A stretch of DNA of 64,000 nt from Octopus sinensis (lineage: Eukaryota): positions 22,754,001 through 22,818,000 of the forward strand of contig NC_043008.1 in assembly GCF_006345805.1 (NCBI RefSeq). The letters run 5' to 3'. A model generated the notes under the pieces. That model made no database searches and was not told the origin of the DNA. It saw only the letters and a program-made list of their open reading frames with translations. The translations under genes and the position numbers were made by a program. Shown here piece after piece: positions 16,998-46,826 of the stretch; position 1 is the first letter of the stretch, and every line of letters starts with the position of its first letter.

Positions 16998-17422
16998 CAT
17001 CATCATCATTATCATCGTTTAGCGTCCGCTTTCCATGCTGGCATGGGTTGGATGGTGCAACTGGGGTCTGGGAAGCCAGGAGGCTGCACCAGGCCCAGTC
17101 TGATCTGGCAATGTTTCTACAGCTGGATGCCCTTCCTAACGCCAACCACTCCATGAGTGTAGTGGGTGCTTTTTACGTGCCAGACGAGGCTGGCAAACGG
17201 CCACGATCGGATGGTGCTTTTTACGTGCCACCGGCATGGAAGCCAGTCGGGGCGGCGCTGGCAACGGCCACGTTCAGATGGTTCTCTTATGTGCCACCGG
17301 CACTGGTATCACAGCTACAATTTCCATTGATGTTGATCGATTTTGATTTTGATTTTCACTTGCCTCAACAGGTCTTCACAAGTAGAGTTTTGTGTCCCAA
17401 GAAGGAAAGGTATGCATAAGTG
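16998..17422 (-). mobile_element. RTE LINE 3' fragment
   Basis: (CAT)n tail through to ...gtccaag.aggaaagg.at..ataagtgg, as in the full RTE. Confidence 0.85.
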
Positions 17423-17659: not shown

Positions 17660-17705
<46 letters not shown>

Positions 17706-18464
17706 GGCTTAGTAAAATAAATTACTTTGCCACATACTGAACTCATTAGAAATAGTAGCCAAAAAAAACTTTTTTAAAACTATTTCTAATACTTAAAGAA
17801 AATCTCTCTCATATAGTGTTTGCTCAATTCAACTCACGAAAGTATGGGGGTAAAGACATTAAAAAATCAAATGCAAAGGTTATTTGAGAACGTACGTTTC
17901 TAGATTAGTCAAATCGACATTTCTTTCGTCAGCTCATCTAGAAACGTACGTTCTCAAATAACCTTTGCATTTGATTTTTTAATGTCTTTACCCCCATACT
18001 TTCGTGAGTTGAATTGAGCAAACACTATATGAGAGAGATTTTCTTTAAGTATTAGAAATAGTTTTAAAAAAGTTTTTTTTGGCTACTATTTCTAATGAGT
18101 TCAGTATGTGGCAAAGTAATTTATTTTACTAAGCCCTTTTATATAATGTAATAATTTGAATTCGCCTTAAATGGTCCCTTTGCATACTGAATACTTGGTG
18201 AAATTGATTAATAATTAATTAATTTTACCCTCAATTGTTGAAATTATAATTCATCTCTCTCTATTTAATGCTTCGGATTTTACCGAAAAAGCATAGTGTT
18301 TGCTGATTTTAACCCACGCTGGTGGAAAGGGGAGAGCAGAAATTCTTCGCTTGCATATCTTGAATTTGCTGGCACTGATAGTTCGAGCAGATCTTCAGAA
18401 GCGATAAGAAGCCGAAAGGGTATGCTCCCACTTTCAGTGTTTTCAAATCCAAACCAAGGAGTTC

Positions 18465-18516
18465 TGAGCTGACGAAAGAAATGTCGATTTGACTAATCTA
18501 GAAACGTACGTTCTCA
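18465..18516 (+). ncRNA. Type I hammerhead ribozyme motif (copy 1)
   Basis: ugag CUGACGA a-aga-aau-guc-gauuu-gac-uaa-ucu-a GAAA cguacg UU^ cuca. Stem III is palindromic (ACGUACGU) and the cut is predicted after 18512. Confidence 0.75.
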
Positions 18517-19022
18517 AATAACCTTTGCATTTGATTTTTTAATGTCTTTACCCCCATACTTTCGTGAGTTGAATTGAGCAAACACTATATGAGAGAGATT
18601 TTCTTTAAGTATTAGAAATAGTTTTAAAAAAGTTTTTTTTGGCTACTATTTCTAATGAGTTCAGTATGTGGCAAAGTAATTTATTTTACTAAGCCTTTTA
18701 TATAATGTAATAATTTGAATTCGCCTTAAATGGTCCCTTTGCATACTGAATACTTGGTGAAATTGATTAATAATTAATTAATTTTACCCTCAATTGTTGA
18801 AATTATAATTCATCTCTCTCTATTTAATGCTTCGGATTTTACCGAAAAAGCATAGTGTTTGCTGATTTTAACCCACGCTGTGGAAAGGGGAGAGCAGAAA
18901 TTCTTCGCTTGCATATCTTGAATTTGCTGGCACTGATAGTTCGAGCAGATCTTCAGAAGCGATAAGAAGCCGAAAGGGTATGCTCCCACTTTCAGTGTTT
19001 TCAAATCCAAACCAAGGAGTTC

Positions 19023-19074
19023 TGAGCTGACGAAAGAAATGTCGATTTGACTAATCTAGAAACGTACGTTCTCA
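19023..19074 (+). ncRNA. Type I hammerhead ribozyme motif (copy 2)
   Basis: Identical to copy 1, 558 bp downstream. A third, minus-strand copy lies at 17885-17936. Confidence 0.75.
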
Positions 19075-19358
19075 AATAACCTTTGCATTTGATTTTTTAA
19101 TGTCTTTACCCCCATACTTTCGTGAGTTGAATTGAGCAAACACTATATGAGAGAGATTTTCTTTAAGTATTAGAAATAGTTTTAAAAAAGTTTTTTTTGG
19201 CTACTATTTCTAATGAGTTCAGTATGTGGCAAAGTAATTTATTTTACTAAGCCCTTTTATATAATGTAATAATTTGAATTCGCCTTAAATGGTCCCTTTG
19301 CATACTGAATACTTGGTGAAATTGATTAATAATTAATTAATTTTACCCTCAATTGTTG

Positions 19359-19417
<59 letters not shown>

Positions 19418-43595: not shown

Positions 43596-46500
43596 TCACT
43601 TGTCCTGCCTGGTCTTCTCACGTACAGAATATTTCCAAAGGTCTCGGTCTCTGGTCATTTCCTCAGTGAGGCCTAAAGTTCGAAGGTCGTGCTTCACCAC
43701 CTCCTCCCAGGTTTTCCTGGGTCTACCTCTTCCACGGGTTCCCTCAACTGCTAGGGATTGGCACTTTCTCACACGCCTATCTTCATCCATTCTCGCCACA
43801 TGACCATACCAGCGCAATCGTCTCTCTTGCACACCACAACTGATGCTTCTTAGGTACAACATTTCTCTCAAGGTGCTAACGCTCTGTCGAGTATGTACAC
43901 TGACATTACACATCCATCGGAGCATACTGGCTTCATTCCTCACGAGCTTACGCATGTCCTCAGCAGTCACGGCCCATGTTTCGCTGCCATGTAGCATGGC
44001 TGTTCGTACACACGCATCATACAGTCTGCCTTTTACTCTGAGCGAGAGGCCTTTAGTCACCAGCAGAGGTAAGAGCTCCCTAAACTTTGCCCAGGCTATT
44101 CTTATTCTAGCAGTTACACTTTCAGCGCACCCACCCCCACTACTGACTTGGTCACCTAGCTATCAACTACTTCTAGTTTTTCCCCCTGGAAAGTGACGGA
44201 AGTTGTTTTCTGCAGATTTTCGGAGGTTAATGCTCCCGAGCATCTGCCACATACAAAAACTATCTTCCCAGTTAGCCTACCTTTGACATTGCTGCACCTC
44301 TTATGTGTCCATAGCTTACACTGGGTACATCTTATAGAGTTTCTACCTACACCTTTTCTACAGATCGAGCAGGGCCATCTTCCTGAAGATATTTGTGGAT
44401 TGTCTACCTTTCTACTTATTAGTACTTTGGTTTTAGCTAGGTTGACTCTAAGGCCCCTTGATTCTAAACCCTCCTTCCACACCTGGAACTTCTCCTCCAG
44501 TTCTGATAGTGATTCAGCAATAAGAGCAAGGTCGTCAGCGTAGAGGAGCTCCCAGGGACAGCCTGTCTTGAATTCCTCCGTAATTGCCTGGAGCACTATG
44601 ATAAATAGGAGGGGGCTGAGTACTGAACCCTGGTGGACCCCAACCTCTACTTTGAATTCTTCTGTGTACATGTTGCCAACCCTAACCTTACTTACGGCAT
44701 CTCTGTACATGGCTTGCACAGTCCTCACCAGCCATTCATCTATCCCTAGTTTCCTCATTGACCACCAGATAAGGGATCGGGGGACCCTATCAAAAGCTTT
44801 CTCCATGTCAACGAAAGCCAGGTACAGGGGCTTATCTTTGCTAGGTGTATTTCTCCTGCAGCTGCCTTACCAGGAATATAGCATCAGTGGTACATTTCCC
44901 TGGCATGAACCCAAACTGCATCTCATCTAAACTAACTCTCTCTCTAATTAGTTGGGCTATGACCCTCTCCGTAACCTTCATTACTTGATCCAACAGCTTG
45001 ATACCTCTGTAATTATTTGTATCTAGGGCATCACCTTTACCTTTGTAGCAGTTGACTAGTATGCTGCTGCACCCAGTCTTGGGTATGACTCCTTCGTGTA
45101 TCACCTGGTTGACTATACGGGTGACTAGGTTATAGCCGACACTGCCAGATATTTTGAGCATCTCTGCAGTAATTCCTGATGGGCCTGGGGCTTTCCCTGT
45201 CTTCATGCTTCTAATTGCCTTAGCTACCACGGAACTATCAACTCGGATAGCTGGTCCCTCTGTAGGGTCAACATTTGGCAGACTCTCTTTATCCCATTCA
45301 TTTTCCTCATTCAGTAACCTTTCATAGTGGCGTCTCCAAGCTTCTCTCTTTGCATCCTCATTTAGCGCAAGTGAACCATCCTCCATGCGAACACATTTCT
45401 CTCCTACCACATCACGATTCTCTCTCACACACTGTCTTGCAACACGAAATACCTCAAGTCTTTCATCCTCACGGCGCAGGACATTGGCAAATTTTCTCTT
45501 ATCTGCTTCCCCTCTGGCTAGATAGACCTGTCTCCTAGCTTCCCTTCTGGCAGTCTGATACCCTTCCCTGCTACCACCACGTTCTTCCAGGCCTTCCAAG
45601 CCTGTTTCTTTTGTCTAATAGCCCTGTCAACAATATTGTTCCACCACCACGTTATTTTGGGTCTTAAGGGACTTTGCACCAGCCACAGATCTGGTCAGCG
45701 GCTTTCAGCAGGTTGTCCCTCAGAAACGTCCAGTTGTCTTCTACCCCATGTGTAGCTATACCCCCTTCCACTTCGTCAAAGGCTTCAAGTAACATATCTC
45801 TAAATCTCTGTCCATTCGCAGGGGCTTTAAGCTTCCAGACCCTTCTTCTCCATGTTGGTCGTCTTCTAGTCGCCCTCTTAGTCCTGATCCTAAAGTCACT
45901 AACTACCAGTCTATGTTGTGGGGTGCATTCTCTTCGCCTGGGAAGGTTTTGGCATTTATAAGCAGCCATCTTTCCCTTTTTCTGGCAAGGATGTAGTCGA
46001 TTTGGCTAGTATGCCGGCCCGATCGGTAGGTGACCAGGGGGCTTGTTGGTTTCCTGAAGTTAGTGTTGCAGACCATAAGACTATTCGCATCGCAGAACTC
46101 CAGCAGTCTGGTTCCCTCCTCGTTGCGGGAACCATAACCGTAGCCTCCATGTACGCCATGGAAGCCCCCAGCATGTCGTCCAACATGCCCATTGAAATCA
46201 CCAGCCACAAAGAGAAGGTCCCTGTCGTTCGTCGAAAACTGTCTTTCTGTCCATCGGGTAGCCCTGGCTGAGGGGCATAGGCCGATATAATGGTTGCTAA
46301 TCTATTATGAAGCACTATTCTAATCTTAAGTATTCTGTCACTTACTCTGATTACCTCAATTACTCTATCTATCCATTTCTCAGCGATAAGTATACCCACG
46401 CCATCAACCCCGTCAGTGTTCCCTGCCCAGAAAATCTTGTACCTGTGTTCCTTGCCTGTGAGGACCCTAGCAGATCCTCCTCTCCACCTTATTTCTTGCA

Positions 46501-46669
46501 TACAACATACATCAACACGTCTCCGTTCAAGCATCTCGACTATCTCGCCAGACCTACCTTTCAATGTGCCAACGTTGAGGGTGTGGGAGGTGTGGGCCTC
46601 TGAGACCCTGGGATGAGGGACAGCAGTGTTATGTACCTGAAAAGAAAGCTTGCATTTGCCAGATATCAT
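43596..46669 (-). pseudogene. RTE ORF: AP endonuclease, reverse transcriptase and PHD finger, split by about five frameshifts
   Basis: EN motifs TLNVGTL, QEIRW, GDFNGHVG and SQIDY. RT motifs KAPGPSG, NYRGIKLL, QFGF, EKAFDRV, GVHQGSVLSPLLF and YADD (44531-44542). C4HC3 finger at 44240-44371. C-terminal RLRWYGHVARM and RGRGRPRKTW. Confidence 0.95.
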
Positions 46670-46826
46670 ACTGAGACTCTAGACTACAACCTGCATAAAT
46701 TTCACAGTTTTTGCGCTATATGATCACAATAAACCCTACATAGGGGTGCGGGGGGGGGGTCAAGAAAGATAGAAAACAGAAACTTCCGGTTCCGGTTCTG
46801 GTGGATGGTGGAGGGTGGGGTCACCT

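What the first reader, a model, noticed from the sequence alone, without database searches (positions are those of the whole stretch)
17700..19365. 558-bp tandem unit with two same-strand hammerheads, predicting release of a unit-length RNA
Seen: identical CUGACGA...GAAA-CGUACG-UU motifs at 18469 and 19027, a partial one at 17937, and an antisense copy at 17885-17936. The inversion breakpoint falls within the ribozyme region. The units differ by only a few 1-bp indels, so the insertion is young. Known: a palindromic stem III (ACGUACGU) lets minimal hammerheads cleave as dimers. Inference: a read-through transcript would excise a 558-nt monomer (18513-19070) able to circularise.
Basis: partly seen in the sequence, partly recalled or inferred. 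Interest (0 to 1): 0.8.

Follow-up and report, generated by a model that had tools for sequence, protein, structure and literature searches.

The report
Penelope-mobilised hammerhead retrozyme repeat family
This is one young copy of a non-coding repeat family (about 4,000 hammerhead-ribozyme motifs in this animal genome) inserted into TA microsatellites; it is likely copied by a Penelope-like retrotransposon from a self-cut, probably circular RNA, which makes it a new member of a known class whose many copies record how such elements integrate.

Summary
Two intact type I hammerhead motifs lie 558 nt apart (predicted cuts after 18512 and 19070), with a partial motif and an antisense arm, all inside (TA)n. 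The locus is not unique: the genome holds 4,068 copies of this ribozyme motif. Insertions end at two fixed 3' ends about 98 nt apart. Of 87 mapped insertions 64 are inverted, and 53 of 56 resolved ones pair a long end with a short end, never two alike. This is the signature of Penelope-like elements (PLEs); Neptune-type PLEs with the same target and end rule occur in the genome, but none of 118 PLE loci shares the unit's sequence. In vivo cleavage has indirect support only: 8 of 48 long arms stop just 3' of the cut site (1.2 expected). Against it, the window's ribozyme has A·A at the usually paired 10.1-11.1 position, covariation is weak, most arms cross the cut site, and no RNA data could test it. 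The breakpoint inside the ribozyme is incidental. [quoted passage not shown]

The parts
17668..17701 (.). Left (TA)17 target microsatellite
17696..17936 (-). Inverted arm (unit positions u513-u560 + u1-u193; u1 = first base after the cut). Its 3' end is the family's short end and overlaps the TA run by TATATA
17885..17936 (-). Antisense-strand hammerhead: full core, stems II and III and the 4-bp proximal stem I; the distal stem I 5' strand is missing
   Evidence: sequence
17937..17952 (+). 5'-truncated hammerhead remnant (3' half only), start of the long arm
17953..18512 (+). Unit 1 counted from cut site to cut site, 560 nt, non-coding
18456..18525 (+). Hammerhead 1 (type I): stem I 4+4 bp with internal loop, CUGACGA, A·A at 10.1-11.1, stem II 3+3 bp, GAAA, palindromic stem III ACGUACGU; predicted cut 18512/18513
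18513..19070 (+). Predicted 558-nt monomer, 33% GC; as a circle -149.9 kcal/mol, z -7.2 against 40 dinucleotide shuffles
19014..19083 (+). Hammerhead 2, identical to hammerhead 1; predicted cut 19070/19071
19071..19366 (+). 3' partial unit u1-u296 ending at the family's long end; 19269-19366 is the roughly 98-nt tail
19363..19417 (.). Right (TA)28 target microsatellite

Best explanation
The feature is one young insertion of a non-coding tandem-repeat family with a hammerhead motif in each roughly 560-nt unit, likely mobilised in trans by a Neptune-type Penelope-like retrotransposon from a unit-length RNA that is predicted to be released by paired hammerheads and probably circularised. Inferred cycle: (1) a multi-unit copy is transcribed; (2) two hammerheads pair through the palindromic stem III and cut, and the monomer is ligated to a circle (predicted, untested); (3) the PLE endonuclease nicks both strands of a (TA)n tract; (4) reverse transcription starts from one strand at u296 and from the other at about u198, likely on the same RNA, and runs around the template, giving tandem units; (5) the two cDNA ends are joined, which leaves an inverted arm and a tail at one end only. 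Shown here: anatomy, copy numbers, end rule, target, array homogeneity. Inferred: cleavage, circularisation, identity of the helper, twin priming. Rough odds: PLE-mobilised retrozyme 0.9; some in vivo cleavage 0.7; circular template 0.55.
For: Family: 4,068 ribozyme motifs; 1,214 exact long-end and 1,027 exact short-end junctions with TA, controls 0. End rule: 64 of 87 insertions inverted; partner end short in 46 of 48 resolved long-anchored cases and long in 7 of 8 short-anchored cases; no like pairs. Autonomous RT + GIY-YIG elements with a CxxxxCxxC linker, a hammerhead in the 3' UTR, (TA)n ends and two 3' ends exist in G000; the 3 inverted copies seen in family F each pair a tailed with an untailed end. 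Both arms stop at the same template point in 18 of 53 resolved insertions (permutation mean 3.9, maximum 13 in 20,000). Long arms stop at u1-15 in 8 of 48 at risk against 1.2 expected (p 4e-5), the highest of 18 bins. 88 of 151 arms cross a cut site, and 166 of 180 junctions are exact. Arrays are subfamily-pure: 6 mosaic of 1,641 locus-by-column tests, with 3 noisy loci left out. One array has 7 full units within 1 substitution of each other. In 190 unfiltered ribozyme segments, pair 18465-18516 occurs as U-A 166, U·G 9, C-G 10 and never C·A; N7, H17 and loop positions vary. Literature: PMC7229834 (circular retrozyme RNAs), PMC11167929 (two RT start sites define the tail; both strands are cut and extended), PMC8557442 (inverted copy, tail, TA bias), bioRxiv 10.64898/2026.07.22.740005.
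Against: No cleavage, circle or strand-specific expression was shown. 10.1-11.1 is U·U 128, A·A 33 (window), U-A 18, G·U 11 of 190, never G-C; U4C occurs in 21 and A6 changes in 9. Covariation does not exceed shuffles (76 of 500). The active fold (-5.3) is less stable than the local minimum-energy fold (-9.8). The u1-15 stops could be RT pausing at stem I, and a second cluster lies at u37-56. No helper with a homologous pLTR was found among 118 PLE loci. In PMC11167929 hammerhead-dead RNA inserted normally in vitro and no RNA-seq reads ended at the cut site. Rfam gives no hammerhead match even at E 10.
Confidence: 0.65

Rival explanations
1. Same family and helper type, but the template is an uncleaved or partly cleaved linear multimer. 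The hammerhead is weak or protein-dependent and largely a passenger, and arrays are kept uniform by template jumping or gene conversion.
For: Non-canonical 10.1-11.1 and a propagated U4C variant; 40 of 48 long arms that reach the cut site pass it; PMC11167929 found unprocessed RNA to be the dominant substrate; 8 of 9 Xenopus dimers were inactive in vitro (bioRxiv 10.64898/2026.07.22.740005). Some arms stop at u3-4 after crossing two sites (L003, L030), as a partly cleaved multimer would give.
Against: Linear copying cannot lengthen arrays, yet subfamily-pure arrays of 5-7 full units persist. Junctions are precise in 166 of 180. Pair-preserving changes in stems I and II suggest selection on the fold.
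Confidence: 0.25
2. The inversion arises by fold-back (self-priming) of a single cDNA rather than by priming of both target strands. This concerns the integration step only.
For: In 24 of 64 inverted copies the two arms begin within 15 nt of each other (p 2e-14), often at small palindromes. Self-priming was proposed for PLE junction palindromes in PMC3846280.
Against: It does not explain why the second arm stops at the short end and never at the long end. In 22 of the 36 remaining copies the short-end arm reaches further along the template than the long-end arm. PAc extends both strands in vitro (PMC11167929).
Confidence: 0.3
3. The units are the pseudo-LTR of an autonomous PLE not yet found, and these copies are its 5'-truncated or locally amplified ends.
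For: 24 of 57 Xenopus retrozyme families match known repeats, nearly all PLEs, at their pLTRs (bioRxiv 10.64898/2026.07.22.740005). The anatomy (hammerhead, then 3' end, then tail) equals that of local PLE 3' UTRs.
Against: None of 87 mapped insertions showed the unit running into ORF sequence (flanks inspected, not translated). The 4 of 118 PLE loci with unit-like DNA hold it as neighbouring insertions, in L053 and L275 seen to be separated by TA runs. Units are joined head to tail with no ORF remnant.
Confidence: 0.1
4. Assembly artefact, or an ordinary satellite with a chance motif.
For: The units are nearly identical, and their 1-nt indels look like long-read errors. Copy number at this locus was not checked with spanning reads.
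Against: Thousands of dispersed copies, subfamilies 87-100% alike, fixed ends, and the window copy obeys the long+short rule.
Confidence: 0.03

Closest known systems
Non-LTR retrozymes of animals (Cervera & de la Peña 2020, PMC7229834; Li, Clavereau & Pollet 2026, bioRxiv 10.64898/2026.07.22.740005)
   Same: Non-coding low-GC tandem repeats, one type I hammerhead per unit, thousands of copies, predicted self-paired monomer, co-existing PLEs.
   Different: Unit about 560 nt (170-400 nt in the 2020 paper; within the 51-972 bp of the 2026 preprint); dispersed 1-8-unit insertions with PLE-type inverted arms and two fixed ends; non-canonical 10.1-11.1; no parent pLTR found; expression and circles not shown here.
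Pseudo-LTRs of EN+ Penelope-like elements, Neptune/Nematis type (PMC8557442, PMC3846280, PMC11167929)
   Same: Partial tandems, inverted 5'-truncated copy, tail at one end, palindromic junctions, (TA)n targeting, hammerhead upstream of the 3' end.
   Different: No RT or GIY-YIG ORF; tail about 98 nt instead of 30-40 nt; the whole element is the repeat unit.
PLE 'minimal' hammerheads (Cervera & de la Peña 2014, PMC4209133)
   Same: Type I, long helix II, palindromic short helix III predicted to need a dimer.
   Different: Lacks the conserved G10.1-C11.1 pair; has an extended stem I with an internal loop and a 2-bp stem III with a tetraloop.
Non-autonomous Chlamys elements such as MRC1 (passage in PMC8557442)
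   Same: Non-autonomous PLE derivatives with pLTRs and multicopy head-to-tail insertions.
   Different: Those usually share their 3' end with an autonomous family; no such match was found here.

Membership tests
Type I hammerhead ribozyme | Core CUGANGA...GAAA and NUH cut site | tested here: met
   CUGACGA, GAAA, GUU in the window; in 190 unfiltered segments G8 and G12 are invariant, H17 is never G, U4C occurs in 21 and A6 changes in 9
Type I hammerhead ribozyme | Three helices with open stem I | tested here: met
   All 168 cells pair in 14 haplotypes; one compensatory pair; not beyond shuffles, 76 of 500
Type I hammerhead ribozyme | Paired 10.1-11.1 (usually G-C) | tested here: not met
   A·A in the window; U·U, A·A, U-A and G·U in the family
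Type I hammerhead ribozyme | Self-cleavage at NUH | not testable with these tools
   Indirect only: excess of 5' stops at u1-15
Type I hammerhead ribozyme | Match to an Rfam hammerhead model | tested here: not met
   No hit at gathering threshold or at E <= 10
PLE minimal hammerhead | Palindromic short helix III that needs a dimer | tested here: met
   ACGUACGU; hairpin +2.4, duplex -9.8 kcal/mol; dimer action itself untested
PLE minimal hammerhead | Extra nucleotide between 9 and 10.1, then G10.1-C11.1 | tested here: not met
   An unpaired base lies on both sides of stem II; there is no G-C
Non-LTR retrozyme | At least two consecutive tandem units, each with a complete type I hammerhead | tested here: met
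Non-LTR retrozyme | Non-coding, GC below 45-50% | tested here: met
   Longest stop-to-stop frame 81 aa; 33% GC
Non-LTR retrozyme | Highly self-paired monomer | tested here: met
   Predicted only: 62% paired, z -7.2
Non-LTR retrozyme | Expressed as linear and circular unit-length RNA | not testable with these tools
   Only assembled contigs were available
Non-LTR retrozyme | No primer-binding site or polypurine tract | not tested
   No tRNA complementarity scan was run
Penelope-like element (insertion signature) | Inverted 5'-truncated copy next to a partial tandem | tested here: met
   64 of 87 insertions
Penelope-like element (insertion signature) | Tail at one end only (30-40 bp in the literature) | tested here: met
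   53 of 56 resolved; length about 98 nt, outside the published range
Penelope-like element (insertion signature) | Microsatellite (TA)n target | tested here: met
Autonomous Penelope-like element | RT + GIY-YIG ORF | tested here: not met
   None in the element; present elsewhere in G000
Non-autonomous derivative of a named PLE | Sequence homology to the pLTR of an autonomous family | tested here: inconclusive
   None among 118 PLE loci, a small sample of thousands of candidates

The most novel reading that the evidence does not exclude
The family is a genomic record of concerted two-site integration: one PLE RT dimer primes both nicked strands of a (TA)n target on a single RNA at two sites about 98 nt apart. 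That RNA is mostly a ligated hammerhead circle and sometimes the cleaved linear monomer, and it is cut by a hammerhead variant with a free 10.1-11.1 position. This would explain the PLE inversion, the one-sided tail and the tandems by one mechanism and would be the first genomic footprint of in vivo hammerhead cleavage in a PLE cycle.
Probability: 0.3. Interest if true: 0.72.

Novelty: new member of a known kind. Interest (0 to 1): 0.42.

Why it matters
The class is known, and its link to PLEs is in print. What this family adds is numbers on two points that the PLE literature leaves open: how the tandem and inverted structures form (PMC8557442) and whether the hammerhead cuts in vivo (PMC11167929 found no sign). 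The strict long+short pairing, the co-terminating arms and the excess of stops at the cut site give testable predictions. A hammerhead that works without a 10.1-11.1 pair would widen search descriptors, since Rfam misses all these motifs in the window.

Tried and rejected
Helper search: blastn of the unit, and finally blastn plus nhmmer with family units, against 118 loci of GIY-YIG/RT elements from about eight families found only neighbouring insertions. RNA evidence: no RNA holder was listed; 20 of 24 listed runs hold part of the unit, under five organism labels, all as contigs with RNA status only guessed. Laying 4 of them gave no start or end sites, and contigs cannot show ends, strand or level; not used as evidence. 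'Private variants fixed across all units' (18 in 11 of 25 multi-unit loci) was dropped as evidence: the window's apparently private ribozyme variant occurs 129 times in G000, so privacy reflected sampling. One search used a mis-registered structure string; one search is the valid count. One search crashed at output and was rerun, where 13 of 100 loci were dropped as duplicates of the same insertion. Rfam miRNA hits over the inversion are just the long hairpin. A Pol III promoter reading was rejected by inspection (T8 run on the ribozyme strand). No host gene was recognised by eye among the window's ORFs of 90 aa or more (not scanned against Pfam). Not-in-print check: searches for retrozyme/hammerhead/Penelope, octopus or cephalopod with hammerhead, and Penelope/twin priming/pLTR showed no paper on this family or on strict long+short pairing. 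The library lacks most subscription papers; the supplement of PMC7229834 could not be read and bioRxiv supplements are closed, so a listing there is possible.

Full report
Observation. The element spans about 17696-19366 between (TA)17 and (TA)28. It is a 241-nt inverted arm followed by a direct arm of 560 + 558 + about 308 nt. The only differences are two 1-nt deletions in unit 2; there are no substitutions. I number the unit from the first base after the predicted cut (u1 = 17953). The longest stop-to-stop frame is 81 aa. Rfam finds no hammerhead.

Ribozyme. Read by hand it is a type I hammerhead. Stem I is UGAG/CUCA plus AAGG/CCUU around an internal loop; the core is CUGACGA...GAAA; stem II is AGA/UCU and GUC/GAC; stem III is ACGUACGU; the cut follows GUU. 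Stem III is unstable as a hairpin (+2.4 kcal/mol) and stable as an 8-bp duplex (-9.8), which fits the dimer model in PMC4209133 (parts 1-2 of 4 read). Position 10.1-11.1 is A·A here. Among 190 segments from 76 loci taken without a motif filter it is U·U 128, A·A 33, U-A 18, G·U 11, never the G-C that the same paper calls highly conserved. The A·A form has spread: the exact 50-nt motif occurs 129 times. The widespread changes in paired positions keep pairing, including U-A, U·G and C-G at 18465-18516, but a formal count on 14 haplotypes does not exceed shuffles (76 of 500). U4C is carried by 21 segments. Selection on the fold is suggested, not shown.

Family. A search of the own genome G000 (2.7 Gb) gave 2,413 candidates, of which 39 were scored, with best copies 95-100% identical. 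A degenerate ribozyme pattern matches 4,068 times. Subfamilies range from 87 to 100% identity to the window unit. Copies end at two fixed places, about u198 and u296, each running into TA; exact junction patterns match 1,027 and 1,214 times, reversed controls 0. The nearest relatives of the window unit differ by 5 substitutions, so the insertion is young. The host is likely an octopus; this is my recollection of its repeats, and no call names the organism.

Insertion anatomy. I took 70 of the first listed long-end matches and the first 30 short-end matches on contig C1 and dropped 13 duplicates, leaving 87 insertions. 64 are inverted. Where the far end was resolved it was short in 46 of 48 long-anchored cases and long in 7 of 8 short-anchored cases; like pairs never occurred. 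The window copy follows this rule. In 24 of 64 the two arms begin within 15 nt of each other; in 18 of 53 resolved cases the arm lengths differ by 98 +/- 20 nt (permutation mean 3.9). Only 3 of 64 have both breakpoints in the ribozyme, so that feature of the window copy is incidental. An inverted truncated copy, a one-sided tail, junction palindromes and TA targeting are the published PLE signature (passages of PMC8557442 and PMC3846280). PMC11167929 (parts 1-2 of 4) shows that a PLE protein cuts and extends both target strands and that two RT start sites define the tail. The simplest reading of the strict pairing is that the two strands are primed at the two sites together (inference); fold-back of one cDNA remains a rival.

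Template. 88 of 151 arms cross a cut site and 166 of 180 junctions are exact, so the template is usually circular or uncleaved. Arrays are subfamily-pure (6 mosaic of 1,641 tests, 3 noisy loci excluded), and four long arrays hold 5-7 full units. This favours regrowth from one unit, as a circle allows. Long arms stop at u1-15 in 8 of 48 at risk, 1.2 expected (p 4e-5), the top bin of 18; in 6 such insertions both arms stop there or within 3 nt. That is what a cleaved 5' end would leave. It could also be RT pausing at stem I, and a second cluster at u37-56 shows that other hot spots exist. Against cleavage as a requirement: hammerhead-dead PAc RNA inserted normally, with no RNA-seq ends at the site (PMC11167929), and 8 of 9 Xenopus dimers did not cleave (bioRxiv 10.64898/2026.07.22.740005, parts 1-3 of 5). 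For it: coral, mussel and axolotl retrozymes are abundant circles (PMC7229834, passages and sections 14 and 17). The monomer is predicted to be strongly self-paired (z -7.2). For this copy, a transcript starting upstream carries an antisense arm predicted to pair with 19023-19263, so release would need internal initiation or cutting before that pairing forms.

Helper. G000 holds many elements with RT and C-terminal GIY-YIG domains and the CxxxxCxxC linker that PMC8557442 ties to the Neptune and Nematis clades and to microsatellite targeting. Families A, B and F carry hammerhead motifs about 70-170 nt upstream of (TA)n-linked 3' ends; A and F have two ends 35-45 nt apart. None of 118 such loci shares the unit's sequence except as a neighbouring insertion. 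The helper type is inferred; the family is not identified.

Comparison and verdict. It works like a non-LTR retrozyme and meets the sequence criteria; expression and circularity are untested. It bears the PLE insertion signature but is not an autonomous PLE. My searches found no description of this family; a recent octopus repeat annotation mentions no ribozyme (PMC13282606, term search and 3 passages). An unchecked note from this scan describes a similar TA-targeted, PLE-type repeat in another genome (e1-7810660). Verdict: new member of a known kind, interest 0.42. The value lies in the pairing rule, the 98-nt tail, the stop excess at the cut site and the unusual 10.1-11.1 position.

Noticed in passing
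window 18455-18512 against L222-L230, L097: The window unit is 9-12 substitutions from the L004/L008/L010 lineage, but its ribozyme (N7 = C, A·A) matches a clade 26-55 substitutions away: a possible ribozyme-cassette swap between subfamilies, or convergence.
   Followed up: partly
L201-L212 (for example L061:5880-6305): A second hammerhead repeat family: unit about 479 nt, 3,942 candidates, two 3' ends about 79 nt apart, A-U at 10.1-11.1, sharing the AAUAAC loop and UAA bulge with this ribozyme.
   Followed up: partly
L189-L200 (for example L053:2615-2860): An older sister family, 66-88% alike to u100-u315 in local matches, mostly short palindromic insertions.
   Followed up: partly
L061:674-5450; L241-L265; L266, L277: Neptune-type PLE families. 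Family A has two ORFs (479 and 781 aa). Families A, E and F carry hammerheads with the U3-A8 core variant in their 3' UTRs.
   Followed up: partly
L063, L065, L082, L084, L204, L209: At least six further type I hammerhead families with different palindromic stem III sequences occur near PLE loci; the genome appears rich in them.
   Followed up: no
unit u37-56: A second cluster of 5' stops, often with both arms ending together; possibly a transcription start or an RT pause.
   Followed up: no
window 43596-46678: Broken LINE-like element on the minus strand with endonuclease- and RT-like frames, RTE-like by recall.
   Followed up: no
window 17008-17400 and many other places: A very abundant SINE-like repeat flanks the element.
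   Followed up: no
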